Of a stretch of 15,194 nt of DNA, positions 40-15,180 are shown piece after piece. This DNA comes from Bacteroidales bacterium (GTDB taxonomy: Bacteria > Bacteroidota > Bacteroidia > Bacteroidales > UBA12077): NCBI GenBank assembly GCA_028282585.1, contig JANQHR010000157.1, positions 1 through 15,194 on the forward strand, written 5' to 3'. The notes beneath the pieces were generated by a model. The model ran no database searches, was not told the origin of the DNA, and saw only the letters and a list, made by a program, of their open reading frames with translations. Every line of letters starts with the position of its first letter. The stretch's first letter is position 1. The position numbers and the translations under genes are program-made.

Positions 40-61
40 ATTCCAAATAGTGATTAAAATT

Positions 62-2053
62 ATGACAAGATTTTTTTTCCTAATCTTTTTTATCTTATCA
101 ATACCTCTCTTCCCCAATATTCATGGGGTTAAAGACTCTATCGATGTTTCTAAAAAAAATAATATAGATTCATTAAAAACTTCATCGAGTGACTCGTTAG
201 CATTTCTAAAAAAAGGCACATTAACAAATAGTAATATCTTGCTATATAGTTTAAACAAAAATGAAATTAATAAAAGAGATTATCGCTTTACAGGCAACTT
301 GATCAGCTACATGCCATTTGGTTTCCTCAATGATCTTGGGACTAACGGCCAACCTCACCCAATAAGTTTATACGGCAATAGTGTTTCACTCATGTCTGAC
401 GGTGTGTTACTTAATAATAGACTCAACAACACATTCGATTTAATTAATTTCCAATCCGAAAGAATTGACTCAATTGAATTACTCCCGATCACGAAAGGCT
501 TTCTTTACGGAAACTATAACAACTCTGCAGCAGTAAATTTTATTATTCGGGATACAGCTATAACAGCTCCCACAACAAGATTAAGATACTATCAAGCCCC
601 GGAGGATGAAGAGTTTGTAAATCTTTCATTCGATACGAAAATCTTTAATCCCCTTTATTTAACTGTGGATATAACCAACCACAGCGTTGAACCGAGGTAT
701 GAAAATACTCAAGCCGGTGGGTGGAAAGTTAATACGAGACTGAAATACTTATTGTCTGAATCCACTAACATATTTTTAAATTACAACAGCGTCTCAACTG
801 AAACACAATTATTTGGAGGTATAAACGCTTCAAGTAAAGACTTGGTAGAGTACGATAATACACTTGCAGAGGTTGTTTACCCTTTTACAAATAGTTTTTC
901 TTCTCGATTTATGAAAACTAAACAAGACTTTTTAACATTGAGTATTTTATCAAAATTACTCAGTGATAATCCAACGAATATTGATTTTTACTATATATTT
1001 AATAAAACTGAATTCAGACAAAACGAAAGAACAAACCTAGATTATATCGACAATATAATTCATGATAATTCTTTCAAAACATTAGGAATTTCAGCATCAC
1101 AAAAAATTGATCTCAACAAATTTGCAATTACAATTAATTCCAACTTTGAGCAAAACAATTTCACCGCTGATTTATTGGGCGAAAATATATCTCAAAACTT
1201 TTTTAGTGTTGCTGGAATTGCAGAAACAGAAATATTGGATAAATTACATTCTTCAATTTTTACAAAATATTTAAATACTGATGGGAATTCGTACGGTGGA
1301 TTTGGAGGAAATTTAAATTTCTCTATAAGTAATGAAGTTAAATTTTTTGTAGGTTATTCAATTTATGAAAAACCAATTCCAATTTCGTTTAATTTGGAAC
1401 CGGGAATTCTTTATTTCACTCCTAAGGAAAAAGTTTTTGAAAGTTCAATAAAATATTCCTCTAAAAATATTTCAACAATGCTTTCATTTTTCTCAAAAGA
1501 AAATGAAGGGGATTTACTTCCTTTAATTACAAATCTTTCCGACACAACAATTGTAAACGAAGTTGGATATTTCAGAACAATTTCATCAACACAAAAAGGG
1601 CTCAATCTGAATTTTGATGTCCAGCTTTGGAAAATTTTGTTACAAGGTAATGCAAATTACATGCCTGAGTTTGAGGAAAAGACTTCAATCTATCCTGAAT
1701 ATAATTTTATAGGCGGCATATATTATTTAGATACCCTATTCAATAATAATTTAAAACTAAAAGCAGGCTTCAATTTTCAATCGATTGGGCAGCAACAGTA
1801 TTTTGTTATTGATTTCGAAAGGAACGTTCCGGTCAAATACTTTCTGCAAGATTCTCAAGTGGCTTTACTCAAAAATGAATACACCGATTTGGTTAACACT
1901 GTGGATTTATTTATCTCAGCAACTTTTCAAGATGCGGCGGTAGTAAACTTCGTTTTCGAAAATATTTTTGATCAAGAATATTTCATCGCTCCATATTATC
2001 CCAAGCAAGGCCAAGGAATTAGATTTGGAATAACCTGGGAAATTTTGAACTAA
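62..2053 (+). CDS. Outer-membrane beta-barrel protein with plug-like N-terminal region (putative porin / TonB-dependent-receptor-like)
   Basis: ORF 50..2053; ATG at 62 preferred over GTG at 50. N-terminal signal peptide (MTRFFFLIFFILSIPLFP). Plug-like segment 'DGVLLN...FDL...ERIDSIELLP...LYG...AVNFI'. Amphipathic strands follow, and the C-terminus 'ENIFDQEYFIAPYYP...IRFGITWEILN' is typical of FCB-group putative porins. Confidence 0.7.
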   Translation: MTRFFFLIFFILSIPLFPNIHGVKDSIDVSKKNNIDSLKTSSSDSLAFLKKGTLTNSNILLYSLNKNEINKRDYRFTGNLISYMPFGFLNDLGTNGQPHPISLYGNSVSLMSDGVLLNNRLNNTFDLINFQSERIDSIELLPITKGFLYGNYNNSAAVNFIIRDTAITAPTTRLRYYQAPEDEEFVNLSFDTKIFNPLYLTVDITNHSVEPRYENTQAGGWKVNTRLKYLLSESTNIFLNYNSVSTETQLFGGINASSKDLVEYDNTLAEVVYPFTNSFSSRFMKTKQDFLTLSILSKLLSDNPTNIDFYYIFNKTEFRQNERTNLDYIDNIIHDNSFKTLGISASQKIDLNKFAITINSNFEQNNFTADLLGENISQNFFSVAGIAETEILDKLHSSIFTKYLNTDGNSYGGFGGNLNFSISNEVKFFVGYSIYEKPIPISFNLEPGILYFTPKEKVFESSIKYSSKNISTMLSFFSKENEGDLLPLITNLSDTTIVNEVGYFRTISSTQKGLNLNFDVQLWKILLQGNANYMPEFEEKTSIYPEYNFIGGIYYLDTLFNNNLKLKAGFNFQSIGQQQYFVIDFERNVPVKYFLQDSQVALLKNEYTDLVNTVDLFISATFQDAAVVNFVFENIFDQEYFIAPYYPKQGQGIRFGITWEILN

Positions 2054-2130
2054 ACTCCCCATTCGTGTAGTTGTAATTATCACTTCTAATAATTATTTAT
2101 ATGTACTTTTTGATGAAAGAAAGGAAAGTG

Positions 2131-4947
2131 ATGAAATTCAAAATTCTATTTTTGTTATTATTCATTTCCGGATCAATTTTTTCACAAGTAACAGTTGAAC
2201 CGGAATTTGCTACAGAAACAGATACGATTACCGTAACATTTGATGCAACTGAGGCAACTAGAACAGATCTAGTCGGTTATTCAGGCACTCTTTATACCCA
2301 CACAGGAGTCACTACAGTTACGGGGAATAACTCCCCCGCACAGTGGCAGCATGTAATTGGAAGCTGGGGCAACAATTCTAATCAGCCTTCTTGGACTAGA
2401 ATCGGAACTGATCTCTATCAATTAGTGATTCCGAATGCCAGAAGTTTTTACGGCGTTACAAATCCTGCAGAAACAATTACTGAATTAAATTTTGTATTTA
2501 GAAGTGCAGATGCATCTAGGCAAACTGAAGATTTTTTTGTTCCTCTTTTTGAAGACGGATTAAACGTGAAATTGTTAACTCCAACAGCATTGCCAATTTA
2601 TCCGGAGCAAAATAATGAAATCAATATTTCGTTTACCGCATCTGAACCGGATAGTTTATTTTTAATATTTCAGGATAACATAATCTCCCAAACTACTAGC
2701 GATACTTTGACACATGTTATAAATGCTGAAGGAACAGGAAGGCAATGGATAATAATTTCAGCAAAAAAAGGAGAAGAAGTTGTCTCCGATTCATTTTACT
2801 TTTTTGTTCGCGAGCCAGTAAATATTGCTGACCTGCCTGCTGGTGTTGAACACGGGATCAACTATATAAATTCCACCACAGTTACTTTTGTTTTATATGC
2901 ACCCAACAAAGAATTTGTTTATATGATTGGTGACTTTAATAACTGGGAATTTGATCCTGAAGATGAACAGCTTTGGCAGTTATCAGATAACTACTACATG
3001 AATCTTACACCGGACAGTACTACTTATTGGAAAACAATCTCCGGACTTACACCAACTCAAGAATTTAGATTCCAATACCTGGTAGATGGAAATTTAAGAA
3101 TCGCTGATCCGTACGCAGACAAAATTTTAGAAAGTGAGGATTCGTTTATACCCGAAAGTGTTTATCCTAATTTAATTGAATATCCTTCCGATAAAACGAG
3201 TTTTTCTGTTTCCGTTTTTCAAACAGATCAAGAAGAATATCAATGGGAAGTAACAGATTTTGAACGGCCGGCAAAAGAAGAGCTTGTAATTTACGAATTG
3301 CTGGTGAGAGATTTTGTTTCAACGCATAGCTATCAAACACTAATCGATACACTAAGTTATTTTGAAACACTGGGCGTAAACGCGATAGAACTTATGCCTA
3401 TAATGGAATTCGAAGGAAACAGCAGCTGGGGTTACAACTCTGCTTTCATGTTTGCTCCTGACAAATACTACGGTACTAAAAACGATCTCAAGCAATTTAT
3501 CGATGAATGTCACAAAAGAGGAATTGCAGTTATTCTCGATATAGTTCACAACCACCACTACGGAAGGTCGTCATTTGTGAGGCTTTACAATCAAGGCGAT
3601 TTCGGTCCGCCAACTTCGGAGAATCCTTGGTTTAACACAACAAGTCCAAACCCGGTTTTTTCTTTTGGATACGACTTGAATCACGAAGCACAAGTAACAA
3701 AAGATTTAATAGATAGAATCAATAGATACTGGCTTGAAGAATACAACATTGACGGTTTCCGCTTTGACTTTACAAAAGGGATGACTAATACACCTGGTGA
3801 CGGTGGAAGTTTTGATCAAGCAAGAATAGAAATCCTGAAAAGAATGGCTGATGAGATTTGGCAATTTGATTCAACGGCATATGTGATTTTAGAACATTTT
3901 GCACCTGACACTGAGGAGAGAGTCTTAACCGATGCAGGGATGATGGTATGGGGTAATAGCAACTTTAATTATAGCGAAGCAACAATGGGATACCATGAAA
4001 ATGGCAAATCAGATTTCGGTAGAGTGTCGTGGAAAAATCACTCCGGCTTTTCCGGTCCATACGTAGTGGGCTACATGGAAAGTCACGATGAAGAAAGGTT
4101 AATGTATAAAAACCTTCAATTCGGTAATTCAAGTGGAGATTATACTACAAAAGATATTCTAACAGCATTACAAAGAATGAAGATGGCTGCAACATTTTTC
4201 TTTACTATTCCTGGCCCAAAATTGATTTGGCAGTTTGGTGAGCTAGGTTATGATTTTAGTATTGACTACAATGGCAGAGTGGGAGAAAAACCTATCAGAT
4301 GGGATTACTTTGAAGATGAAGCCAGAAAAAAATTATACGACGTTTATGCTGCGCTAATTAATCTCAGAAGGGATTATGATATTTTTAATACATCTGATTT
4401 TGATTTGTCAGTCGGTTCAACAATCAAAAAAATCCAACTTAATTCAGACTCATTAAATATTATGATCTTGGGCAACTTCGGCGTTCTTGAAGGCGGCTTC
4501 AGGCCAAGTTTTCAATCCACTGGTATGTGGTACAACTTTTTTACTGGCGATAGTATGAATATTTCCGATCCTCAAGCTGAAATCAGATTGGAACCTGGAG
4601 AGTTTCATATTTACTCTGACAAAAAATTAACCTCTGTTGACCCTGATATAATTACCGATATTGAAAACAACAACGAAATACCCAATGAATTTAAGCTTCA
4701 TCAGAATTATCCGAATCCATTTAATCCGACGACGGTGATTAGCTATCAACTTTCAGCTGTTAGTGATGTGAAGCTCACTGTTTTTGATATTTTAGGAAGG
4801 CAAATAAAAACTCTGGTAAATCAGGAACAAAGTCCCGGTGTTTATAATATTGAATTCAATTCGGCACAATTATCAAGTGGAATATATTTTTACAGAATTG
4901 AAGCCGGGAGTTTTACAGACATAAAAAAAATGATTTTGCTCAAATAA
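2131..4947 (+). CDS. Secreted GH13 alpha-amylase-family glycoside hydrolase with N-terminal carbohydrate-binding modules (CBM48-like) and T9SS C-terminal sorting domain
   Basis: ORF 2101..4947. ATG at 2131 follows AAGGAAA and begins a signal peptide (MKFKILFLLLFISGSIFSQ). GH13 regions: ILDIVHNH, DGFRFDFTKG (nucleophile D), VILEHF (acid/base E), YMESHDEER. CBM48-like 'VTFVLYAP..VYMIGDFNNW..FQYLVDG..IADPY'. C-terminal 'LHQNYPNPFNPTTVISY..SSGIYFYRI..KKMILLK' matches a Por/T9SS sorting domain. Confidence 0.9.
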   Translation: MKFKILFLLLFISGSIFSQVTVEPEFATETDTITVTFDATEATRTDLVGYSGTLYTHTGVTTVTGNNSPAQWQHVIGSWGNNSNQPSWTRIGTDLYQLVIPNARSFYGVTNPAETITELNFVFRSADASRQTEDFFVPLFEDGLNVKLLTPTALPIYPEQNNEINISFTASEPDSLFLIFQDNIISQTTSDTLTHVINAEGTGRQWIIISAKKGEEVVSDSFYFFVREPVNIADLPAGVEHGINYINSTTVTFVLYAPNKEFVYMIGDFNNWEFDPEDEQLWQLSDNYYMNLTPDSTTYWKTISGLTPTQEFRFQYLVDGNLRIADPYADKILESEDSFIPESVYPNLIEYPSDKTSFSVSVFQTDQEEYQWEVTDFERPAKEELVIYELLVRDFVSTHSYQTLIDTLSYFETLGVNAIELMPIMEFEGNSSWGYNSAFMFAPDKYYGTKNDLKQFIDECHKRGIAVILDIVHNHHYGRSSFVRLYNQGDFGPPTSENPWFNTTSPNPVFSFGYDLNHEAQVTKDLIDRINRYWLEEYNIDGFRFDFTKGMTNTPGDGGSFDQARIEILKRMADEIWQFDSTAYVILEHFAPDTEERVLTDAGMMVWGNSNFNYSEATMGYHENGKSDFGRVSWKNHSGFSGPYVVGYMESHDEERLMYKNLQFGNSSGDYTTKDILTALQRMKMAATFFFTIPGPKLIWQFGELGYDFSIDYNGRVGEKPIRWDYFEDEARKKLYDVYAALINLRRDYDIFNTSDFDLSVGSTIKKIQLNSDSLNIMILGNFGVLEGGFRPSFQSTGMWYNFFTGDSMNISDPQAEIRLEPGEFHIYSDKKLTSVDPDIITDIENNNEIPNEFKLHQNYPNPFNPTTVISYQLSAVSDVKLTVFDILGRQIKTLVNQEQSPGVYNIEFNSAQLSSGIYFYRIEAGSFTDIKKMILLK

Positions 4948-5832: not shown

Positions 5833-5905
5833 GCTGGTGTAGCTCAATTGGCAGAGCAGCTGATTTGTAATCAGCAGGTTGCGGGTTCGAGTCCCATCAC
5901 CAGCT
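5833..5905 (+). tRNA. tRNA-Thr (anticodon TGT)
   Basis: Acceptor stem GCTGGTG/CACCAGC, D arm GCTC..GAGC, anticodon arm GCTGA-TT-TGT-AA-TCAGC, T loop TTCGAGT, discriminator T at 5905. CCA is not encoded. Confidence 0.97.
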
Positions 5906-5910
5906 CACTT

Positions 5911-5938
5911 AAAACCTCACTATACGTGAGGTTTTTTT
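5911..5938. terminator. Intrinsic terminator after tRNA-Thr, probably also serving the convergent TonB-dependent receptor gene
   Basis: AAAACCTCAC-tatac-GTGAGGTTTT followed by further T residues. Confidence 0.88.
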
Positions 5939-5960: not shown

Positions 5961-8111
5961 TCAGTTAATATTAAAGTTCAGACTTAAGTAAAATGAGCGG
6001 CCTGCTGCCGGTTCAAAAAAATTATTCCCAAACGCGTTCGGCACGACCCCGCCATTATATTGCTTGTCAAAAAGGTTCTCTATTCCGGCTTTTAAATTTG
6101 CTTTTCCTAAACCGAAATTGGTTGAATAAATAAAAATCAAGCTTACAACAGAATAACCATCGTTTATAAATTCTTCTTTGGGTTTGCTATCACCGGGAGC
6201 AGGCCCGTTTAAATCATTTGCATAAATTCTGCTTACCGCGTTAAAATTCATCTCGGCAGATAATCCATATAATAATTGAGAGTTAAATCTGAAATTAAAA
6301 TAGTGCTTTGGTATGCCCGGCACACGGTTTCCGCCTAATTGTATTGACTGATTGTTTCGTTCTACCAGGAATTCATCAAACTTCATATCTTGGTAAGTAT
6401 AAGATATCCCGGCTGTAGCAGCATTAAAAGGCGACCAGCTTAAAGAAAGTTCTAAACCGTTATTAGTGCTTTTTCCACTATTACGGTAAAATGTTTCTTC
6501 AAAATCATTTTGAAATGGAATCAATACATCATCGATATTCATTTTATATAAAACCGCATCGTAGTTTAAACCTATTGCCGCCAATGACCCTCTGAAGCCT
6601 ATTTCAAAACTTTCAATATTTTCCGGCACAATAGATTCATTAAATCCGCCAGCACCATCCGGCTTATTGCTCAACTCGTTAGTAGTAGGGGTTTGAAAAG
6701 CTGTCGATAAATTTCCATATAATATCATCCTTTCAGAAAATTTATAGCTTGCGCCTACTATTGGGCTTAATTTATCCATGACTCTTTCACCGGAATCATT
6801 TCCATTAACCAAAAAATTATCTGCTGCCTCAAAATTAAAACTATCATAACGTAGACCAACAATTAGCTTAATTTTTTCGCTAGGTAAAAATTCAAGTTGA
6901 GAAAACACTCCAACACTTTTAACTACTTCGTCTTGCTCTAAAATTTTTTCGCCGTAATTTATATTATCAAAAATTTCATCCGCCTTTATGGAAGTGCTAT
7001 TCGTTATCCCTTCATTTTCAAATTCAATTCTTTCATCATCTTGAACCTCGTAATCAAATCCCGTAATTAAATTTATGTCTCCCAATGAAAATTCCGACGC
7101 AAAAGAGAACGTGGATCTTATTCCATAAGAAAATCTTTCTAAATCAATTACTCTCGTTGTTATTGCATTTAACAATGAACGATGAATTCCGTAGAAGGTA
7201 GTATTAAAAACGGAGTTGCTTGATAAATCATATCTCAGCGATATACCAGCCTGAAGTTGTTCAACATCTTTACCCGATCCACTGTTGATTATTCTATCAC
7301 GGGCTTTTTCAGGATTCTCACCAGCATCCCTTTTATTTAATGATCCCGGATTAAGCAAATAAGGTGAGTTAAAATAATTAGCTACGAAATTTAATTTAAG
7401 ATCATCCAATAAATGTTGTGCGGTTATAAAATTAATTCCACTGAATTTGGCCTCTGAATGCTCCCTAACTCCCTCGTAATCAACAGTAAACAAATTTATA
7501 CCCACCGCCCCCTTTAAGAATTTACCGGACAATCCTACACTATATTTTCTAAAACCAAAACTACCAACATTAAATTCAGGGCTTATCCGAATTTTCCCAT
7601 TAGACGAAAGGACATTGCTTGTAATAAAGATTACACCACCTGAAGAATTACCGTATAACGTAGAATTTGGGCCCCGCAATATTTCTATTTTTTCTAATCC
7701 ACCCGGATTTAAGTTGTTAAGCTGGGATTGGCCATCAGGAAAAGTTAAAGGTATTCCATCCAATAAAATTTTAATACCTCTTACTCCGAACTGTGCTCTA
7801 CTGCCTATTCCGCGAATAATAATTTTATCACCTTGTGAAGGATTAAATCTGTTGCTTACATTCATCCCCGGAACAGAGTTAAACAAATCTTTGATAGTTG
7901 TTAGATTGTTTATACGAGAAAGAGAATTAGAATCAACAATGCTAATCGAATAAGGCATTGTTTTTACATCTGAGGGCTGCCTACTGATTTGTACAAAAAC
8001 TGTATCTAAATCTGCAGTATAAATATTGGTTTGTGCAGATAATTCAAACAGATATCCTGTTAAGAAAAAAACGAGCATCACTGATTTGATTATCTTTAAC
8101 AAAAACTTCAA
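5961..8111 (-). CDS. pqqU: TonB-dependent receptor, YncD/PqqU-like (putative PQQ importer)
   Basis: 716 aa, TTG start (alternative ATG at 8078), signal peptide, TonB-box-like 'DTVFVQ'. The plug 'NRFNPSQGDKIIIRGIGSRAQFGVRGIKILLDGIPLTFPDGQSQLNNL..EKIEILRGPNSTLYGNSSGGVI', the barrel motif 'FQTPTTNEL' and the C-terminus 'NLFDKQYNGGVVPNAFGNNFFEPAAGR' closely parallel E. coli YncD/PqqU as I recall it. It is adjacent to a PQQ-dependent dehydrogenase. The TBDR call is secure; the substrate is inferred. Confidence 0.78.
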   Translation of the reverse strand: MKFLLKIIKSVMLVFFLTGYLFELSAQTNIYTADLDTVFVQISRQPSDVKTMPYSISIVDSNSLSRINNLTTIKDLFNSVPGMNVSNRFNPSQGDKIIIRGIGSRAQFGVRGIKILLDGIPLTFPDGQSQLNNLNPGGLEKIEILRGPNSTLYGNSSGGVIFITSNVLSSNGKIRISPEFNVGSFGFRKYSVGLSGKFLKGAVGINLFTVDYEGVREHSEAKFSGINFITAQHLLDDLKLNFVANYFNSPYLLNPGSLNKRDAGENPEKARDRIINSGSGKDVEQLQAGISLRYDLSSNSVFNTTFYGIHRSLLNAITTRVIDLERFSYGIRSTFSFASEFSLGDINLITGFDYEVQDDERIEFENEGITNSTSIKADEIFDNINYGEKILEQDEVVKSVGVFSQLEFLPSEKIKLIVGLRYDSFNFEAADNFLVNGNDSGERVMDKLSPIVGASYKFSERMILYGNLSTAFQTPTTNELSNKPDGAGGFNESIVPENIESFEIGFRGSLAAIGLNYDAVLYKMNIDDVLIPFQNDFEETFYRNSGKSTNNGLELSLSWSPFNAATAGISYTYQDMKFDEFLVERNNQSIQLGGNRVPGIPKHYFNFRFNSQLLYGLSAEMNFNAVSRIYANDLNGPAPGDSKPKEEFINDGYSVVSLIFIYSTNFGLGKANLKAGIENLFDKQYNGGVVPNAFGNNFFEPAAGRSFYLSLNFNIN

Positions 8112-8194
8112 CTTATTATTAATCCCAAGATTTAATCAGAAAATTTTAAATAGGCTAACAAAACAATAGACATAATTTTTGAAGCATTACATTA

Positions 8195-9649
8195 TTATTT
8201 AGGCAAAGGAATTATTCTATAAACAATTCCCGGTTCTTCTACCGAGACATAAAGATAACCATCAGGCCCTTGCTTAACATTTCTAACTCTGCCGATGTCT
8301 TCCATTATTTTCTCTTCAGATATCACTTTCTCACCTTCTATTTTACACAAGTGTAAATATTCAAAACGTAGCGAACCTATAAGTAAATGTCCTTCCCAGC
8401 CTGGATAAAGATTACCACGCACAAAATCCATCCCCGAAGGAGCTATTGAAGGGTCCCAGTAATGGAGAGGCTGTTCCATTCCCTCTTTTTCAGTTAAGTC
8501 GGTAAATCTGGTTCCAATATAGTTTATACCGTAAGATATTACCGGCCACCCGTAGTTCAAGCCTTTTCTAACAATATTAATTTCGTCTCCGCCTTTTGGG
8601 CCATGTTCGTGAGTCCATAATTCTCCTGTTACAGGATGTTTAATCATACCCTGTTGATTACGGTGCCCGTAAGAGTAAATACTTTTTATTGCATCGGATA
8701 CATCTACAAAAGGATTATCTTCAGGGATTCTACCGTCGTCGTAGAGGCGATGAACCTTGCCCAGATGTGTTGATAAGTCTTGCGGGTATTCATCCCTATT
8801 ACCTCTATCGCCAACTGTTACATATAAATAACCTTCGTTATCAAATTCCAATCTTGATCCGTAATGACGTCCAGTGGTCTCATGAGGGTGTGCTACAAAT
8901 ATAAGTTTGCTATCTACAAGTTTACTTTCCTCCAATTTATATCTTGAAACCGCTGTTGATGATAATACTTTACCCCCTTTTTGGTAAATCGAATAAGATA
9001 AATACAGCCAACTATTTTCACTAAAGTTTGGGTGTAGTTCTACATCCATTAAACCGCCCTGTCCTCTAAACAATACATCAGGCACACCTTCAATTTTTAT
9101 TTTTGTTTTATCTTTATTTATTCTCCATAACTCCCCTGATTTGTCAGTGACCAATAAACTGCCGTCAGCTAGAAAAGCCATTCCCCAGGGGCTTTCCATA
9201 TCTTCAACTATTTTCTCCAGTTTAAAGTTGAAATCTTCAGCTTCGTAAACTTCAGATTCCTCTATTAAATTATATTTATCAAGTCCGCTTCTTTTATGAA
9301 GGAGTGCGGCGGAAAGCTCACCGATTTGTTCATCGCTGAACCCATCTTTAAAAGCGGGCATTTCACCTTCGGCTCGTCCTTCCGAAATAGATGCATAAAC
9401 TTCTTCAGGCGAATCGCCATATATCCATTCTTCTTTAGCAAAATCTTCCATTGATCGGCCATGGCAGCCAGAACAATATTCTTTATAAAGAGCTTCCGAA
9501 CGTGAAATTAGCGATTCAAGATCAGTGTCACTTACTTTCATTTTCTGTAAGCTGTCTTTTTTACACGCGACAGTTAAAGCGGGAAGTAAAACTATTAGAG
9601 AAAAGTATACAACTGTGTTTTTATTAAGAATTTTTTTAAGTGTTTTCAT
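8195..9649 (-). CDS. Lipoprotein: N-terminal c-type cytochrome fused to a PQQ-dependent glucose/sorbosone (aldose sugar) dehydrogenase
   Basis: 484 aa with AAGGA RBS. Lipobox LTVA-C29. Heme motif C59-S-G-C62-H63 with distal 'MPAF' (M97). sGDH/YliI-family motifs GQGGLMDV.LHPNF, HYGSRL.F, GDRG, GKVHRL..DG.IP.DNPF, YGHRNQQG, EHGPKGGDEIN, NYGWP, SIAPSG, GRVRNV.QGPDG.LY. Confidence 0.9.
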   Translation of the reverse strand: MKTLKKILNKNTVVYFSLIVLLPALTVACKKDSLQKMKVSDTDLESLISRSEALYKEYCSGCHGRSMEDFAKEEWIYGDSPEEVYASISEGRAEGEMPAFKDGFSDEQIGELSAALLHKRSGLDKYNLIEESEVYEAEDFNFKLEKIVEDMESPWGMAFLADGSLLVTDKSGELWRINKDKTKIKIEGVPDVLFRGQGGLMDVELHPNFSENSWLYLSYSIYQKGGKVLSSTAVSRYKLEESKLVDSKLIFVAHPHETTGRHYGSRLEFDNEGYLYVTVGDRGNRDEYPQDLSTHLGKVHRLYDDGRIPEDNPFVDVSDAIKSIYSYGHRNQQGMIKHPVTGELWTHEHGPKGGDEINIVRKGLNYGWPVISYGINYIGTRFTDLTEKEGMEQPLHYWDPSIAPSGMDFVRGNLYPGWEGHLLIGSLRFEYLHLCKIEGEKVISEEKIMEDIGRVRNVKQGPDGYLYVSVEEPGIVYRIIPLPK

Positions 9650-9924: not shown

Positions 9925-12096
9925 TTATTTGAATATTATCTTAAATGTGGAACCCTCACCTTTTTTACTTTCAACAGAAATCTCAGCATTGTTTAATTCA
10001 CAATATTTTTTAACTAACGCTAAACCCAATCCTGTACCTTCAAATTTGCGTGTATAACCTTGATCTTCTTGAGAAAACGAATCAAATAAATGGGGCAGAT
10101 AGTTTTCAGAAATTCCAATGCCTGTATCAATTATTTTTACAACTTTTTTATTATCAATAATTTTGCAAACAACACTTATTTTACCTTCAGGAGTATATTT
10201 AATGGCATTGTCAATTAAGTTGGAAAACATCTGAACTAATGTGTATTGGTCACCGGTAATAATAAAATTTGGATCGCCACAAATAATTTCAAATTCCAAC
10301 CCTTTTTCTTTTGCATAATTGTAATACTCTAGTTTTAAGTTTTCTAAAACATCTTTGTATAAGTTTAGTTTTATTGGGTTAATCACCAGCGACCCAATCT
10401 GAATTTCTGACATATTTAACAGCAAATCTATTGTTCGTATTATCCGCTTTCCGGCATTAGAAATAACTGTGAAGCTTAATTTTAAATCTTCGTTTACTTT
10501 TTCTCCTATTTCATCTCTTAGCAAGCTGGCAAAACTCATCATTGTATTTATCGGAGTTCTGATTTCATGTGACATTTGGGCTAGAAACTCTGACTTGAGT
10601 TTATCGGAGTATTCCGCAGCTCCTTTTGCAAGAAGCAATTCTTTTTCCGTATTTTTTCTTATTTGAATATCTTTTTCCAATTTAGCATTCGCTTCAAGTA
10701 GTTCTTTAGTCCTTTCCTTTACTTGTTTTTCTAATTTAACTTTATGTTCAGAAAGTTCTTTTTCTGCGAGTTTACGGGCAGTAATGTTTTTCATTGTACC
10801 AATTAAACAGATTGGTGTTTTATCCAGGCAACTATAAACCCCATTATCATCGATATAAACGTAATCCCCCGCCTTATCTTTAAAACGGTACTCTGCTTGG
10901 AACTTACTTAAATTCTTTTCAGATTCATTTAACAGTTCTCTCAGACTTTCTCTATCATCTTGATGAATATTATCAACCCATTTATTCAAATCGAAACTTT
11001 TGAATTCTTCAGGACTATAACCAACTACTTCTTCAATTGCACCAAACCATTTTATCTCTCCGGTTCCAACATGGTATTCATAGATCATTTGCCCGGTTTG
11101 CTCAGTTGCAATTTTGTATTTTTCTTCTTCTTCCCTTAGCTTTTTTTCAGCATTGATTTTCGTTCTGAAATAACCGAAGACAAACATGAAAAAGGTAAAT
11201 CCACTTATAAAGACAATCAAAAGGAAATAGTTTACAAAGCTATCATTAGCATGCAAGGCCTCGTCAATTGCCATTGTAACAGCAACTGACCAAAAAGTAT
11301 TTTCAAGTTCTACAGGATGGTAGGCAGCAATTTTTTCTATTGCGACTTTTGATTTACTTTCCGGAGGATGGTAATAATATTCCCCGATCCCGGATTCTTT
11401 TTTCAACATTTTCTGAACGAGATTAAAAACTGTGGGATATTGTTCTGGAGTTTCAAATACACTTAAGCCAGTGCGTCCCTCAATCGGAGAAAAAAGTTCA
11501 ATACCTTTTTCACTTAATACATAAGCATAGCCAGACTCACCTATCCTTATGTTTTCCAAAAACCGTTTAGCAATTAATTCAAACGGAATAAGTAGTGAGA
11601 TACACCCATTGTATTCTTCATTTTTAAATACAGGATATGCAAAAGCAATAGCTCGATAACCTTGTACCGTATTAAATACATCACTAATAACCGGCTCATG
11701 AGTTTCCATGATTAGTGCATTGTGAGGTTGATAAGAAATATCCCGTCCAATTACTTCATCATTAAAAGGTATAGTGAAATTAATTATGCCATTTTTATCA
11801 ACTCTGGTTATTGCCTTTATTTCGTTGGCATAACTTTCGTAAAACTTTTTAAGTTCATTCAGCATATCACCATTCATATCAATAATCGAATCATGCTGTG
11901 CTAAATGATTTAATGCACTTTTACTATGGGCAAAAAAAGACTCTATTCCGCTTGCGGCTTGTTCTGCATAAAGGCGTTGTAGTTGAACTAATTGGTCTAA
12001 GGTTTTTTTGAAGACTTGATCATAGATCTGATAAAGTAAAATTCCACCAAAAAAAAGAGGGACAATTGATAGAATAATGAAAAGGTATCTTCGCAT
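9925..12096 (-). CDS. Membrane sensor histidine kinase (periplasmic Cache-like domain, PAS, HisKA, HATPase)
   Basis: 723 aa. Two TM segments (about aa 5-23 and 290-310) flank a dCache-like region ('PVISDVF..VQGYRAIAFAYPV', 'IGESGYAYVLSEKG'). PAS 'WVDNIHQDDRE..EYRFKDKAGDYVYI'. H box MSHEIRTP, N box NLIDNAIKYT, G1 DTGIGI, G2 GTGLGL. No receiver domain. Confidence 0.93.
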   Translation of the reverse strand: MRRYLFIILSIVPLFFGGILLYQIYDQVFKKTLDQLVQLQRLYAEQAASGIESFFAHSKSALNHLAQHDSIIDMNGDMLNELKKFYESYANEIKAITRVDKNGIINFTIPFNDEVIGRDISYQPHNALIMETHEPVISDVFNTVQGYRAIAFAYPVFKNEEYNGCISLLIPFELIAKRFLENIRIGESGYAYVLSEKGIELFSPIEGRTGLSVFETPEQYPTVFNLVQKMLKKESGIGEYYYHPPESKSKVAIEKIAAYHPVELENTFWSVAVTMAIDEALHANDSFVNYFLLIVFISGFTFFMFVFGYFRTKINAEKKLREEEEKYKIATEQTGQMIYEYHVGTGEIKWFGAIEEVVGYSPEEFKSFDLNKWVDNIHQDDRESLRELLNESEKNLSKFQAEYRFKDKAGDYVYIDDNGVYSCLDKTPICLIGTMKNITARKLAEKELSEHKVKLEKQVKERTKELLEANAKLEKDIQIRKNTEKELLLAKGAAEYSDKLKSEFLAQMSHEIRTPINTMMSFASLLRDEIGEKVNEDLKLSFTVISNAGKRIIRTIDLLLNMSEIQIGSLVINPIKLNLYKDVLENLKLEYYNYAKEKGLEFEIICGDPNFIITGDQYTLVQMFSNLIDNAIKYTPEGKISVVCKIIDNKKVVKIIDTGIGISENYLPHLFDSFSQEDQGYTRKFEGTGLGLALVKKYCELNNAEISVESKKGEGSTFKIIFK

Positions 12097-12161: not shown

Positions 12162-12974
12162 CTAAATTATATCATTAATCATTTTTTCACTAATATCCCA
12201 AAGATTGATCCATAAATCTTTGTCATAAGAAATTTGTGACGATTGAGTAATTCTGGAATCAATAAAATATTTACCAGTTAGGTCTTCAATCGAATTAGAA
12301 TCGGCAAGAAAAACAGAAGTGCTCGCTCCTTCTTTCAAAGAAGCTCCTGTTATGTCAAATCCTGCTCTAAGTAATTTTGTATCTATAACACCAGGATGCA
12401 GACAATTAACTGAAATGTGAAAATTATTTAAACGATTTGCTAACTCATAAGTAAATAATACATTTGCTAATTTTGATTGAGCGTAAGCCTCGTATGAATC
12501 AAATCTTTTTTCCGAATTCAAATTACTAAAATCAATACTTCCCCTGTTGTGTGCTATTGAACTTACATTTATAATTCTAGCGTATTCGGAATTTTTTACT
12601 AAATCCAAAATTTTATTCGTAAATAAAAACATCGCAAGATGATTAACAGCAAATGTAGTTTCAAAGCCTTCATTGGTAATAACCCTGTCATTCATATAAA
12701 CACCGGCATTGTTTATCAAAACATCTATTTTGCTATAACTTTCCTTAAGCAATTCTGCAGAGTGATTAACTTCTTTCATCAAAGAGAAGTTGCACACAAA
12801 GTAATCAACATTACTTGAAGGATATTTAATGTTTATGAATTCTTTTGTTTCAATACATTTGTTTTTATTCCTGCCGTGAATAATAATATCGTAGCCTTTT
12901 TCCGCTAAATCTATTGCTGTCTGCTTACCAATGCCGTCTGTTGAACCAGTAATTAATACAATCTTATTTTTCAT
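12162..12974 (-). CDS. Short-chain dehydrogenase/reductase (retinol-dehydrogenase-like classical SDR)
   Basis: 270 aa. TGSTDGIG, NNAG, 'FAVNHLA', 'RIINVSS', catalytic YAQSK, 'LHPGVIDT'. The Arg in 'HGRN' suggests NADP(H) preference. Confidence 0.92.
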   Translation of the reverse strand: MKNKIVLITGSTDGIGKQTAIDLAEKGYDIIIHGRNKNKCIETKEFINIKYPSSNVDYFVCNFSLMKEVNHSAELLKESYSKIDVLINNAGVYMNDRVITNEGFETTFAVNHLAMFLFTNKILDLVKNSEYARIINVSSIAHNRGSIDFSNLNSEKRFDSYEAYAQSKLANVLFTYELANRLNNFHISVNCLHPGVIDTKLLRAGFDITGASLKEGASTSVFLADSNSIEDLTGKYFIDSRITQSSQISYDKDLWINLWDISEKMINDII

Positions 12975-12981
12975 AAATTTC

Positions 12982-13968
12982 TCAAAATAATTTTGATTTC
13001 AATATGTTCCATGTTTCTTTCTTTGTCGCCAAATCAAAATGAAATGGGAAAGATTTCATGCCATGATAAAATGCCGATGATTCCCTGTGGCATTGCAACG
13101 GGCATAAATAGCATTCTGCATCATTCAAAATAAAAACATCGCCATTTAAGTTACCCAAAATGTTATCTTTAACCATACACTCATAAACATCTAATTTATT
13201 ATCAACATAGAAAACGTTTTCCCCACTTTTACAGGCATATTTTTGTTTACTACCCAAATAATAATTTTTGATGTCTTTCAAAAATAATTCATGATGAACC
13301 ATCTTGTTATTTAATTCAGCTTTAAGAGTGCTAAGCCTATCGGCAATGTTTGCAAGTTCATCGTTTGAAAAATCTATTACATCGGGAGAATCCAAACCTA
13401 TTTTATATGTAGATGCCGGATTAGAAATAGGGAAAGAAAAGAAAACTAGTTCGAATCCAATTTCTAAAACATAGTTTGCAATTTGTTCAAGTTCATTTAC
13501 GTTATGTTTTGCAATTGTAATTCCTGCGGAAGTTATAATTTTTGTATCCGAAAAATATTTCAGATTTTTTTCAATGATCTCCTTTAAATTATCAATCCCC
13601 CGGTGATTATTAAATATTTCATCTTTGTAATGATCAAACGAAATTGAAAGAATATCTAACCCGGCTTTATCAAGTTTTTGTATTTTTTCTTGGTTAAGTA
13701 AACCTCCATGCGTCATTACTTGGGTTATGATTTTATGGTTGGCAGCTTCAGAAACAAGTTCGTATAAATAGGGATAAGCAAACGGTTCGCCACCGGTTAT
13801 TTCTAAATAACCACACTTTAATTTTTGCTTTAGATTTTTTATTAGTTTTTCGATTTCATCCTTAGGAATGTAATTCGCTTTTTCAGTTTTCCAAAAATCA
13901 CAAAAACTACATTTTGCATTACAAAAATCTGTTACACACAAAAAAACTGTGTTTCTATTAATCATCAT
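12982..13968 (-). CDS. Radical SAM protein with C-terminal twitch/SPASM-like auxiliary Fe-S domain
   Basis: 328 aa. C16xxxC20xxC23 (CNAKCSFC), TGGEP, 'SISFDH', 'HRG'. C-terminal cysteines C246, C264, C286, C289, C293. Confidence 0.9.
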   Translation of the reverse strand: MMINRNTVFLCVTDFCNAKCSFCDFWKTEKANYIPKDEIEKLIKNLKQKLKCGYLEITGGEPFAYPYLYELVSEAANHKIITQVMTHGGLLNQEKIQKLDKAGLDILSISFDHYKDEIFNNHRGIDNLKEIIEKNLKYFSDTKIITSAGITIAKHNVNELEQIANYVLEIGFELVFFSFPISNPASTYKIGLDSPDVIDFSNDELANIADRLSTLKAELNNKMVHHELFLKDIKNYYLGSKQKYACKSGENVFYVDNKLDVYECMVKDNILGNLNGDVFILNDAECYLCPLQCHRESSAFYHGMKSFPFHFDLATKKETWNILKSKLF

Positions 13969-15180
13969 TTAAGTAGAAAGTTTTTTTCTATTAATATAAC
14001 TATCCAATATTAAGTAGGCCGCTGAAACAATAATACCAGTTATCCCGACGATAAACCACAATGAATTTGCACCTAGGTTTTGATATAGCCACATCCCAAA
14101 TATTGGCCCGAGAACTATTGTTAGAGAAAAAGTAAATGAAAACATACCCATGTACTTACCTCTATTTTGATCATTTGTTAAAGTAGCTATATAGCTAATT
14201 AACAAAGGCAATACAAACATTTCGCCTATCGTCCATAACACAACTGTAAAAACTACATAAGTAAATCCTGAACCTAATGGTTGGATTGCAAATCCGCCGA
14301 AAAGAAAAATTGCTCCGATAGACATTACTTTTAGCGGATTATATTCACTTACCTTATGAATTAAAGGCATCTCTACGAAAGTTATCATAAATGCATTTAT
14401 TGCAAGAAGCAAACCTATTGTATCTTCACTAAAAAGATAATTTTCTTTCAAATAAATAGGCCATGTATTAAAAATTTGAATGAACACCAATCCTATCGGC
14501 ACCATTATTAAGAGCACAGCCATAAAAATTTTATCTTTCCAAGGGAAATGGCTTTTATGATCCTTTCCTTTTGTTTCCTTTTTTTCATTTATGTAATTAC
14601 GGAAATAATAATAAAACAATCCGGCTGCAAAAAGGCATGTTAATCCATCTACCCAAAATAAATAACTGTAATCAATTAGTGCCAAGAAGCCTCCTATTGC
14701 CGGGCCAATTGCAACACCCAAATTTATAGCAAGCCTATTTAAAGCATAGCTTCTTGAAACACTTTCCTTGGGAGAGAATTCGGCTAAAGCTGCAGCGTTA
14801 GCAGGCCTTAATGCATCCGCAAACATTGCAACTAAAAAAACTGTAATTGCAATTTCATAATCGTCCCGCATAAAATCTAAGCAAATGTAGCTAATCCCCG
14901 CGGTTATCAAACTATAAAATTGAACCTTTTTAGAATTCAAATGATCAGTTAACCATCCGCCAAGAAATGATCCAACGAGTGATCCTAATCCATAAACAGT
15001 CAGCACTTCGCCGGCTTCAATATTGGTGTAGTTCAATTCTTTAGTTAAATAAAGTGTAAGAAAAAAGAGTACCATTGAACCGCTTCTGTTCAGAAACATA
15101 ACAATGCATAAATACCAAATCGGTTTTGGCAAACCGGAAAATGAATCACGATATAAGTTTAATATGTTTTTAAACATCAC
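13969..15180 (-). CDS. MFS transporter (drug/metabolite exporter-like, MdtH-like)
   Basis: 403 aa, about 12 hydrophobic segments. Motif-A-like 'GGWLTDHLNSKK', antiporter-type 'NLGVAIGPAIGG', and 'NRGKYMG'. GTG start at 15180 or ATG at 15177. Confidence 0.9.
   Translation of the reverse strand: MMFKNILNLYRDSFSGLPKPIWYLCIVMFLNRSGSMVLFFLTLYLTKELNYTNIEAGEVLTVYGLGSLVGSFLGGWLTDHLNSKKVQFYSLITAGISYICLDFMRDDYEIAITVFLVAMFADALRPANAAALAEFSPKESVSRSYALNRLAINLGVAIGPAIGGFLALIDYSYLFWVDGLTCLFAAGLFYYYFRNYINEKKETKGKDHKSHFPWKDKIFMAVLLIMVPIGLVFIQIFNTWPIYLKENYLFSEDTIGLLLAINAFMITFVEMPLIHKVSEYNPLKVMSIGAIFLFGGFAIQPLGSGFTYVVFTVVLWTIGEMFVLPLLISYIATLTNDQNRGKYMGMFSFTFSLTIVLGPIFGMWLYQNLGANSLWFIVGITGIIVSAAYLILDSYINRKKLST

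What the first reader, a model, noticed from the sequence alone, without database searches (positions are those of the whole stretch)
5961..9649. Two-gene putative PQQ-scavenging module: PqqU-like importer plus its client quinoprotein
Seen: a PQQ-dependent aldose dehydrogenase gene is followed after 83 nt, on the same strand and with no evident terminator, by a TonB-dependent receptor carrying YncD-like plug and C-terminal motifs. No pqqA-E genes are in the window. Established: E. coli YncD (PqqU) imports PQQ for apo-quinoproteins in a non-producer. Inference: this FCB-group (probably Ignavibacteria-like) organism takes PQQ from its community and loads it onto the co-encoded periplasmic enzyme, forming a self-contained cofactor-uptake and sugar-oxidation cassette.
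Basis: partly seen in the sequence, partly recalled or inferred. Interest (0 to 1): 0.8.

Follow-up and report, generated by a model that had tools for sequence, protein, structure and literature searches.

The report
PQQ importer gene beside PQQ-dependent dehydrogenase
Two neighbouring genes encode an outer-membrane importer for the cofactor PQQ and a sugar-oxidising enzyme that needs PQQ, a tidy example of a cofactor-scavenging strategy already described in 2025 rather than a new system.

Summary
On the minus strand, a 484-aa gene (8195-9649) is followed after 83 nt by a 716-aa TonB-dependent transporter gene (5961-8111). The gap has no terminator; a clean one follows the transporter.

The transporter is a PqqU-type PQQ importer. 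PqqU is its best family, sequence and fold match by a wide margin, and it keeps the published PqqU signature (F108, R311, R361, plus K281).

It is a probable lipoprotein with an N-terminal haem-c domain fused to a YliI/Asd-like six-bladed PQQ dehydrogenase.

The pair recurs, often only 6-12 nt apart, in six related Ignavibacteria-like loci with otherwise unrelated flanks. PqqC and PqqE were found neither in the host MAG nor in the PqqU-bearing relatives searched (positive control worked).

Caveat: the 15-kb contig looks Ignavibacteria-like and is probably mis-binned in a different MAG.

Novelty is modest. PqqU scavenging, also in Ignavibacteria, was published in 2025, and this scan has already noted PqqU beside PQQ enzymes on other DNA. 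What is new is the likely client enzyme that the 2025 survey could not find in Ignavibacteriota. No expression or biochemical data exist.

The parts
8195..9649 (-). Gene for a cytochrome c-fused, YliI/Asd-like six-bladed PQQ-dependent sugar dehydrogenase (484 aa, P0002)
   Evidence: ORF. PF07995 429 bits and PF13442 37.7 bits. PDB 2g8s (E. coli YliI) 281.7 bits, 7cdy 274.4 bits.
9563..9649 (-). Signal peptide ending in a lipobox-like LTVAC (Cys29): probable lipoprotein
   Evidence: Read from the translation. A Cys at the same place in 7 of 8 orthologues inspected. The lipobox rule is recalled, not computed.
9311..9502 (-). Monohaem cytochrome c domain (residues 50-113; CSGCH 59-63, Met97 in GEMPAF)
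   Evidence: PF13442 above its cut-off. Motif positions. CxxCH present in 8 of 8 orthologues inspected.
8228..9196 (-). GSDH beta-propeller domain. H262 aligns with catalytic H144 of A. calcoaceticus sGDH. Also R330/N331/Q333, G350-P351 and R454/R456
   Evidence: Domain limits. Residue-by-residue alignment to 5min/1c9u and 2g8s; positions. Residue roles are recalled from the sGDH literature.
8112..8194 (-). 83-nt spacer between the two genes, with no terminator and no stable structure
   Evidence: z +0.43. Related loci have 6-12 nt here.
5961..8111 (-). Gene for a PqqU-type TonB-dependent PQQ transporter (716 aa from TTG; 705 aa from ATG 8078)
   Evidence: NF041535 283 bits against 154 for the next model. 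PDB 6v81/9c4o 242/239 bits against 54 for the next. Model pLDDT 83.9; best folds 9c4o and 6v81, TM 0.89 and 0.91.
7632..7967 (-). Plug domain (residues 49-160) with F108 (= E. coli Y99) and Q93 (= Q84). TonB-box-like DTVFVQ lies just upstream
   Evidence: Alignments; positions.
6072..7391 (-). Beta-barrel (residues 241-680) with K281 (= K274), R311 (= R304), R361 (= R365) and E539 (in place of R536)
5911..5935 (.). Hairpin with flanking A- and U-runs: a two-way intrinsic terminator closing the transporter gene and the convergent tRNA gene
   Evidence: Fold -14.1 kcal/mol, z -4.56, 0 of 200 shuffles as good.
5833..5906 (+). tRNA-Thr(TGT), context only. An Ignavibacteria-like copy that differs from the MAG's two native copies
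   Evidence: 68/74 identical to the copy of genome G053, 62/75 to the MAG's own copies.

Best explanation
The two genes form one transcription unit of an Ignavibacteria-like bacterium that does not make PQQ. The outer-membrane TonB-dependent transporter (a PqqU homologue) captures free PQQ released by other community members and moves it into the periplasm, powered by TonB. There PQQ, with a metal ion, loads the apo-form of the co-encoded dehydrogenase. That enzyme is a lipid-anchored six-bladed propeller related to E. coli YliI/Asd. It oxidises aldose sugars to lactones and passes the electrons through its own fused haem-c domain towards the respiratory chain.

Shown here: family assignments, signature residues, gene order, conservation of the pair, and the failure to find PqqC or PqqE.

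Inferred: PQQ as cargo, co-transcription, sugar substrates, metal identity, lipid anchoring and the electron route.
For: Transporter.
- PqqU is the top NCBIfam model over the full length (283 bits against 154).
- It is the top solved sequence (6v81 241.7 and 9c4o 238.6 bits against 54.5).
- It is the top fold (E 5.5e-56 and 7.8e-53, TM 0.89 and 0.91, against 8.6e-38 and 0.80 for FoxA).
- The signature used by Munder et al. 2025 to call PqqU (Y/F/W99, R304, R365; PMC12124388 sections 9, 10 and 25) is met. F108, R311 and R361 are invariant in 24 of 24 homologues.
- K274, R304 and R365 are invariant in 13 of 13 sequences aligned with E. coli PqqU itself.
- K281 keeps the lysine, so this is the plain PQQ type.

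Enzyme.
- PF07995 scores 429 bits and YliI (2g8s) 281.7 bits.
- The catalytic His and the PQQ/Ca-contact motifs are aligned and kept.
- The haem site CSGCH is present.

Linkage.
- The same cyt c-GSDH gene lies directly upstream on the same strand in L027 and L084 (2 of 80 genome loci) and in L130, L146, L168 and L186 (4 of 80 metagenome loci).
- The stop-to-start gaps are 6-12 nt in 5 of these 6.
- No other window gene is shared.
- The identities of the two proteins fall in parallel (63/63, 53/61, 51/58, 41/42 %).

No synthesis found.
- PqqC: 0 of 20 PqqU-bearing genomes, including the MAG and G053 and G054, which carry the pair.
- PqqE: no match above 67 bits, against a cut-off of 381.
- Controls on S. 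meliloti pSymB scored 428 and 610 bits.
- In G053 the only PF07995 match in the genome is the gene beside pqqU.
- PF01011 enzymes were found in 0 of 5 Ignavibacteria-like genomes.
Against: - Identity to E. coli PqqU is only 28%.
- The score is far below NCBIfam's equivalog cut-off (283 against 1200).
- E. coli R536 is Glu here (E539), and R536E lengthened the lag phase in E. coli.
- Munder et al. themselves warn that TBDT cargo cannot be read from homology alone.
- Most PqqU-like loci lack an adjacent GSDH gene: 74 of 80 genome loci and 66 to 69 of 80 metagenome loci have no GSDH-type neighbour.
- Three loci with 48-49% matches (L094, and the plug-only fragments L177 and L198) have no cyt c-GSDH upstream.
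- The window's gap is 83-116 nt, longer than in relatives.
- A weak hairpin lies in the 3' end of the dehydrogenase ORF.
- The contig is probably not from the MAG it is binned in, so the true host genome was not searched for pqq genes.
- pqqA is too small to search reliably, and pqqB and pqqD were not searched.
Confidence: 0.72

Rival explanations
1. The transporter imports something other than free PQQ, for example a lanthanide or lanthanide chelate. Those TBDTs are routinely mis-annotated as YncD/PqqU. Alternatively it imports a siderophore, and merely sits beside a PQQ enzyme that needs the metal.
For: A 2026 preprint (10.64898/2026.07.10.737718, passages seen) reports 74 lanthanide-type TBDTs whose top PDB hit is PqqU 6v81. 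Many six-bladed PQQ enzymes are predicted there to be lanthanide-dependent. The window protein is below the NCBIfam PqqU cut-off.
Against: The same preprint says the lanthanide TBDTs lack the conserved PQQ-binding residues. The window protein has all three signature residues plus K281 and Q93, invariant or nearly so across its clade. Siderophore, haem and B12 models score at most 154 bits against 283.
Confidence: 0.1
2. The organism makes its own PQQ, and the transporter recaptures leaked cofactor, as in Pseudomonas, rather than supporting an auxotroph.
For: The contig is probably mis-binned, so its true genome is unseen. Munder et al. found PQQ biosynthesis genes in 23% of PqqU carriers. P. 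aeruginosa has both (abstract).
Against: PqqC was found in 0 of 20 PqqU-bearing genomes searched, including the two that carry the same gene pair, with a working control. PqqE was not found in G053-G056. Munder et al. report no biosynthesis genes in Bacteroidota (n = 206).
Confidence: 0.1
3. The two genes are neighbours without a functional link. They would be separately transcribed, and the enzyme would obtain PQQ by porin diffusion or not use PQQ at all.
For: The gap is 83-116 nt, with promoter-like matches at chance level (18 found against 16.5 expected). Most PqqU homologues have other neighbours. In the genus of the host MAG, 9 of 36 genomes carry a cyt c-GSDH. None of the 24 of those genomes searched has a PqqU homologue.
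Against: The pair recurs in 6 further loci across transporter divergence down to 41% identity, with 6-12 nt gaps and otherwise unrelated flanks. Independent lineages place PqqU inside operons with a non-homologous 8-bladed PQQ dehydrogenase and a small cytochrome c.
Confidence: 0.08

Closest known systems
E. coli PqqU (YncD), the TonB-dependent PQQ importer (PDB 6v81, 9c4o; Hantke & Friz 2022; Munder et al. 2025, PMC12124388)
   Same: Plug plus 22-strand barrel. It is the best sequence, profile and fold match. Signature residues Y/F99, K274, R304 and R365 are kept.
   Different: Identity is 28%. R536 is replaced by Glu. In E. coli, pqqU stands apart from its client genes gcd and yliI, next to divergent yncE; here it follows a client gene directly.
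E. coli YliI/Asd soluble aldose sugar dehydrogenase (PDB 2g8s) and A. calcoaceticus sGDH (1c9u)
   Same: Six-bladed GSDH fold. Scores 281.7 bits to 2g8s. The catalytic His and the PQQ/Ca-contact motifs are aligned. YliI is an apo-enzyme loaded with imported PQQ in a non-producer (passages).
   Different: The window enzyme carries an N-terminal haem-c domain and a lipobox. Substrate and metal are unknown.
Bacterial six-bladed PQQ proteins with adjacent or fused cytochromes (Voutsinos et al. 2026 preprint, 10.64898/2026.07.10.737718)
   Same: The preprint notes that some bacterial six-bladed PQQ proteins contain a haem-binding domain, and that Bacteroidetes ones sit beside cytochrome c551 (section 9). 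The fused architecture is very common: the top 120 of at least 8000 hits all have PF13442 plus PF07995, including Pontibacter and Spirosoma.
   Different: In the passages and sections read the preprint does not describe pqqU adjacent to such genes. Whether the window enzyme is of the Ca or the lanthanide type was not resolved here.
P. aeruginosa PA2289 (pqqU) and PA2290 (gcd) (preprint 10.64898/2026.04.27.721047)
   Same: The importer and a PQQ-dependent glucose dehydrogenase carry consecutive locus tags. Adjacency is my inference from the tags.
   Different: Gcd is an 8-bladed membrane enzyme, the organism also synthesises PQQ, and the passages seen do not discuss the adjacency.
XoxF3 gene clusters of Acidobacteria and Gemmatimonadetes that include a TonB-dependent receptor (Voutsinos et al. 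2024, PMC10875860, section 11 and the Fig. 5 legend)
   Same: A PQQ dehydrogenase, cytochromes and a TonB-dependent receptor sit in one cluster. This resembles the PF01011 - PF06439 - PqqU - small cytochrome c operons I saw in 11 loci.
   Different: A different (8-bladed) enzyme class. The section read does not call the receptor a PQQ importer.

Membership tests
PqqU sensu Munder et al. 2025 (homologue of E. coli PqqU with the PQQ-binding signature) | Detectable homology to E. coli PqqU (their BLASTP cut-off was 1e-5), with PqqU as the best match among TBDTs | tested here: met
   6v81 E 1.7e-70, 241.7 bits, against 54.5 for the next. NF041535 is the top model. Foldseek places 9c4o and 6v81 first.
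PqqU sensu Munder et al. 2025 (homologue of E. coli PqqU with the PQQ-binding signature) | Aromatic residue at Y99, and Arg at R304 and R365 | tested here: met
   F108, R311 and R361 by HMMER alignment and by MAFFT with E. coli b1451. Invariant in 24 of 24 clade members.
PqqU sensu Munder et al. 2025 (homologue of E. coli PqqU with the PQQ-binding signature) | Semi-conserved K274 and R536 (not used by the authors as filters) | tested here: inconclusive
   K281 is kept. R536 is Glu (E539), as in at least 90% of this clade. The paper says R536 is poorly conserved.
PqqU sensu Munder et al. 2025 (homologue of E. coli PqqU with the PQQ-binding signature) | High-affinity PQQ binding and TonB-dependent PQQ uptake | not testable with these tools
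   Needs ITC or a complementation assay. PQQ is not among the ligands offered for complex prediction.
NCBIfam NF041535 TonB_rec_PqqU (equivalog) | Score at or above the curated cut-off of 1200 bits | tested here: not met
   283 bits. Of the 14 control genomes only one passes the cut-off, although three ring (E. coli, C. vibrioides, B. thetaiotaomicron). I therefore do not file the protein under this equivalog.
Lanthanide-type TBDTs mis-annotated as YncD (preprint 10.64898/2026.07.10.737718) | Absence of the conserved PQQ-binding residues | tested here: not met
   The residues are present, so the protein is not of this group by the preprint's own criterion.
GSDH / soluble PQQ-dependent sugar dehydrogenases (PF07995; YliI, sGDH) | PF07995 above its gathering score over the whole domain | tested here: met
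   429.1 bits against a cut-off of 25, profile positions 2-328 of 332.
GSDH / soluble PQQ-dependent sugar dehydrogenases (PF07995; YliI, sGDH) | Catalytic His (sGDH H144) and PQQ/Ca contacts (R228, N229, Q231, G247-P248, R406/R408) | tested here: met
   H262, R330, N331, Q333, G350-P351 and R454/R456 are aligned; positions. The residue roles are recalled from the sGDH literature, not taken from a call.
GSDH / soluble PQQ-dependent sugar dehydrogenases (PF07995; YliI, sGDH) | NCBIfam TIGR03606 subfamily cut-off (434.55 bits) | tested here: not met
   130.8 bits. That model matches only residues 131-371.
Class I c-type cytochrome domain (PF13442) | CxxCH haem site plus a distal Met, with the domain above its cut-off | tested here: met
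   37.7 bits against 27. CSGCH at 59-63 and Met97. CxxCH in 8 of 8 orthologues.
PQQ auxotroph (scavenger) | No pqqC or pqqE in the genome | tested here: inconclusive
   Not found in the 98%-complete MAG or in 19 other PqqU-bearing genomes, with working controls. The contig's true host genome is not identified.

The most novel reading that the evidence does not exclude
PqqU genes have repeatedly been built into operons with whichever PQQ enzyme the lineage uses, together with a c-type cytochrome. In Ignavibacteria-like bacteria the partner is a haem-fused six-bladed dehydrogenase. In Gemmatimonadota- and Latescibacterota-type MAGs it is an 8-bladed dehydrogenase, a PF06439 protein and an unannotated ~130-aa membrane cytochrome c. 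If so, 'importer + client + electron outlet' cassettes would be portable respiratory modules for PQQ auxotrophs. The neighbours of pqqU could then be used to discover unrecognised PQQ enzymes and accessory proteins, including the clients missing from the 2025 survey of Ignavibacteriota.
Probability: 0.45. Interest if true: 0.5.

Novelty: new member of a known kind. Interest (0 to 1): 0.32.

Why it matters
Munder et al. 2025 found PqqU in Ignavibacteriota but no PQQ-dependent enzyme there. They suggested an undetected enzyme or an antioxidant role. Their methods name only the 8-bladed Pfam families.

This locus and its relatives point to a concrete candidate: a haem-fused GSDH-family dehydrogenase encoded directly in front of pqqU. 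In one related genome it is the only PQQ-type enzyme detected.

That turns a small open point into a simple bench test, and it suggests that pqqU neighbourhoods are a useful guide to PQQ clients. It does not change the picture of PQQ scavenging itself.

Tried and rejected
- RNA evidence: the look-up of sequencing runs listed no RNA holder. The only holder is a DNA run that may be the source sample.
- A metagenome scan with the single protein found nothing. The second scan, with alignment A1, worked.
- tblastn with the window dehydrogenase at 1e-5 missed distant GSDH/DUF7133-like neighbours, which Pfam then showed.
- PF13360 is too unspecific to count quinoproteins. It rings in 11 of 14 control genomes, and most of the MAG's own matches lie in frames of about 380-480 aa on contig C28. 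I dropped it.
- Base composition cannot decide the binning question. C113 ranks 31st of 125 contigs in tetranucleotide distance.
- Rfam found only the tRNA, so there is no riboswitch or leader.
- I could not place the enzyme in the Ca-type or lanthanide-type motif classes of the 2026 preprint, because its alignment numbering could not be mapped.
- The supplements of PMC12124388 were not available as text. I therefore could not see which Ignavibacteriota genomes that study used. bioRxiv supplements are closed.
- No TBDT phylogeny was built; profile, sequence and fold rankings were used instead.
- Complex prediction was not used, because an importer and an enzyme need not touch.
- Considered and rejected: the radical SAM gene at 12982-13968 as pqqE (46.9 bits against a cut-off of 381).


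Full report
**What is there.** The window is one whole 15,194-bp contig (C113) of a 4.89-Mb MAG (98.35% complete, 3.89% contamination). On the minus strand, an ORF at 8195-9649 (484 aa) is followed by an ORF at 5961-8111 (716 aa from a TTG start). The gap is 83 nt. It is 116 nt if the ATG at 8078 is used, as in the database gene call P0003. The gap has no terminator-like site and folds no better than shuffled sequence (z +0.43). A clean hairpin flanked by A- and U-runs at 5911-5935 closes the second gene (z -4.56). A convergent tRNA-Thr(TGT) lies at 5833-5906. One weak hairpin lies inside the last ~50 nt of the first ORF.

**The transporter.** It has Plug and TonB-dependent barrel domains.
- Against NCBIfam the best model by far is PqqU (NF041535). 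It scores 283 bits over profile positions 14-670 of 676, against 154 bits for the generic siderophore model. That is well below the 1200-bit equivalog cut-off.
- Among solved structures, YncD/PqqU (6v81, 9c4o) score 242 and 239 bits, against 54.5 for the next chain.
- An AlphaFold2 model (pLDDT 83.9, pTM 0.84) is closest to 9c4o and 6v81 (E 5.5e-56 and 7.8e-53, TM 0.89 and 0.91). The next match is FoxA (8.6e-38, TM 0.80).

Munder et al. 2025 (PMC12124388; I read the abstract and sections 9, 10, 11 and 25) showed that homology alone is not enough. They defined PqqU by Y99 (or F/W), R304 and R365. K274 and R536 are important in E. coli but less conserved. In the HMMER alignment and in a MAFFT alignment with E. 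coli b1451 fetched from NC_000913.3, these positions are F108, R311, R361, K281 and E539.
- K274, R304 and R365 are invariant in 13 of 13 aligned sequences.
- F108, R311 and R361 are invariant in 24 of 24 clade members.
- Lys at the K274 position argues for the plain PQQ type, not the Glu variant that the authors link to possible metal co-transport.

A 2026 preprint (10.64898/2026.07.10.737718; passages and sections 7, 9 and 10 read) warns that lanthanide TBDTs are mis-annotated as YncD, but says they lack the PQQ residues. By that criterion this protein is not one of them.

**The enzyme.** PF07995 (GSDH) scores 429 bits over residues 152-474, and a cytochrome c domain (PF13442, 37.7 bits) covers residues 50-113. 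The propeller matches E. coli YliI/Asd (2g8s, 281.7 bits) and 7cdy (274.4 bits). In the alignment to A. calcoaceticus sGDH, H262 falls on H144, R330/N331/Q333 on R228/N229/Q231, G350-P351 on G247-P248, and R454/R456 on the C-terminal Arg pair. The roles of those residues are recalled from the sGDH literature. The N-terminus ends in LTVAC (Cys29). A Cys stands at that place in 7 of 8 orthologues, and CxxCH is present in 8 of 8. The architecture is common: all 8000 scored candidates had E <= 1e-40, and the top 120 all carry PF13442 plus PF07995, including proteins of cultured Pontibacter and Spirosoma. The 2026 preprint already remarks that some bacterial six-bladed PQQ proteins have a haem domain.

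**Is the pairing more than chance?** I collected 80 loci around PqqU homologues from species-representative genomes and 80 from metagenomes. Of these, 71 and 56 respectively have at least 1.5 kb of upstream DNA.
- A cyt c-GSDH like the window's lies directly upstream on the same strand in L027 and L084 (2 of 80) and in L130, L146, L168 (split over two frames) and L186 (4 of 80).
- The stop-to-start distance is 6-12 nt in L027, L130, L146, L168 and L186, and about 78 nt in L084.
- The identities of transporter and enzyme to the window's proteins fall together: 63/63, 53/61, 51/58 and 41/42 %.
- No other window gene is shared with these loci apart from T9SS sorting tails. The two genes therefore travel as a unit.
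- Equal contig lengths suggest that the two closest database relatives are also paired: P0004/P0123 at 69/73% and P0005/P0125 at 60/63%. This is an inference that I could not check.

Against this, most PqqU-like loci have other neighbours. Among loci with at least 48% identity and at least 1 kb upstream, 5 of 8 have the pair. L094 instead has a distant GSDH/DUF7133-like gene downstream. L177 and L198, which are plug-only fragments, have none.

**A wider pattern.**
- Distant GSDH-like genes flank PqqU in L028 and L094, and tblastn suggests the same for L132, L137, L145 and L147.
- In 11 of the 80 genome loci (L031, L034-L037, L039, L041, L042, L045, L046, L068) an 8-bladed PF01011 dehydrogenase lies two genes upstream (Pfam-confirmed for L036).
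- In L041 the order is dehydrogenase, PF06439 protein, PqqU, then a 130-aa ORF, with gaps of 48, 54 and 48 nt.
- That small ORF has an N-terminal hydrophobic helix and an ECxxCHPT motif conserved in six loci, so it is probably a membrane cytochrome c.
- PqqU is thus wired to non-homologous PQQ enzymes plus a cytochrome in separate lineages.

Munder et al. examined co-localisation only with the pqq operon. A 2024 paper shows a TonB receptor in XoxF3 clusters (PMC10875860, section 11). PA2289 (pqqU) and PA2290 (gcd) of P. aeruginosa bear consecutive tags. Three full-text searches gave no paper describing a pqqU-GSDH operon. This scan has itself noted PqqU beside PQQ enzymes on other DNA.

**Producer or scavenger?** PqqC (TIGR02111) has no match in the MAG or in any of 20 PqqU-bearing genomes, including G053 (L027) and G054 (L084). 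PqqE matches stay at or below 67 bits, against a cut-off of 381. The same searches found pqqC (428 bits) and pqqE (610 bits) on S. meliloti pSymB. In five Ignavibacteria-like PqqU genomes, PF01011 was found in 0 of 5 and PF07995 in 5 of 5. In G053 the only PF07995 match is the gene beside pqqU.

This fits, and may explain, a statement by Munder et al. They found no PQQ-dependent enzyme in Ignavibacteriota (n = 4), possibly because it was 'not identified in our search'. Their methods name PF01011, PF13360, PF13570 and one external HMM, not PF07995.

**Whose contig is it?** Earlier notes of this scan call the MAG an uncultured, coral-associated Bacteroidales (I did not check the name). Several results set the contig apart from the rest of the MAG.
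- None of 24 same-genus genomes has a PqqU homologue. One of 16 same-order genomes has a 26%-identical hit.
- The window's SpoU-type methyltransferase is at most 37% identical to same-genus copies, but 43-54% identical to copies in 4 of 5 Ignavibacteria-like genomes.
- The MAG has a second copy on contig C41, which is 61-83% identical to the same-genus copies.
- The MAG holds three tRNA-Thr(TGT) genes where most tRNAs are single. The window's copy is 68/74 identical to that of G053, which also lies beside the SpoU orthologue. It is only 62/75 identical to the MAG's two identical native copies.
- The MAG's other cyt c-GSDH (on C172) has 69-91% orthologues in 9 of 36 same-genus genomes. The window's enzyme is 48% identical to it.
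- Composition does not separate the contig.

I conclude that C113 is probably a mis-binned Ignavibacteria-like contig; a large transfer is the alternative. The case for 'no pqq genes' has to lean on related genomes.

**Verdict.** It is a new member of a known kind. PQQ scavenging through PqqU, also in Ignavibacteria, is published, and fused-haem six-bladed PQQ enzymes have been noted. The added value is the likely client of PqqU in Ignavibacteriota and the recurrent operon theme. Nothing here shows transport, binding, activity or co-transcription. No RNA data were available (listed under tried and rejected).

Noticed in passing
whole window (contig C113) against the MAG's contigs C41 and C9: The contig's SpoU methyltransferase and tRNA-Thr(TGT) are Ignavibacteria-like, while the MAG holds its own genus-typical copies elsewhere. 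The contig is therefore probably mis-binned, or less likely a large transfer.
   Followed up: yes
L036:8227-8619, L037:8259-8651, L041:8137-8529, L045:7394-7786, L046:8232-8612, L068:8153-8545: A ~130-aa ORF directly downstream of PqqU homologues has an N-terminal hydrophobic helix and a conserved ECxxCHPT motif, with no Pfam hit at 1e-8. It looks like an unannotated membrane-anchored monohaem cytochrome c in a PF01011 dehydrogenase - PF06439 - PqqU - cytochrome operon.
   Followed up: partly
L028:8175-9386 and L094:8140-9288: A distant GSDH/DUF7133-like propeller gene (PF07995 47-52 bits) lies directly downstream of PqqU homologues in two Ignavibacteriales/Bacteroidetes MAGs. tblastn suggests similar genes next to PqqU in L132, L137, L145 and L147. 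These are possible further PQQ clients.
   Followed up: partly
G000:C172:22396-23883 (L008:1009-2499): The MAG's native cyt c-GSDH has 69-91% orthologues in 9 of 36 same-genus genomes. No PqqU homologue was found in the 24 same-genus genomes searched, and no pqqC in the MAG. How these bacteria obtain PQQ is open.
   Followed up: partly
L168:2060-3479: In this metagenome contig the cyt c-GSDH gene upstream of the PqqU homologue is split over two reading frames. This is either a frameshift or a sequencing error.
   Followed up: no
window 50-2053 (+): A 667-aa ORF has no Pfam or NCBIfam match and no paralogue in the MAG.
   Followed up: no
window 2101-4947 (+): A GH13 alpha-amylase-family protein of 948 aa carries a T9SS C-terminal sorting domain, with a 47.6%-identical paralogue on C62. 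A secreted starch-degrading enzyme near a sugar dehydrogenase may be coincidence. L060 also has an alpha-amylase next to its PqqU homologue.
   Followed up: no
window 12162-15180 (-): MFS transporter, radical SAM and SDR genes are tightly packed on one strand (0 and 7 nt apart). The radical SAM protein matches no specific family above its cut-off. This is a small operon of unknown role.
   Followed up: no
window 9925-12096 (-): An orphan dCache-PAS histidine kinase lies 275 nt upstream of the dehydrogenase gene on the same strand, with no response regulator in the window. It is not conserved beside the pair in related loci.
   Followed up: partly
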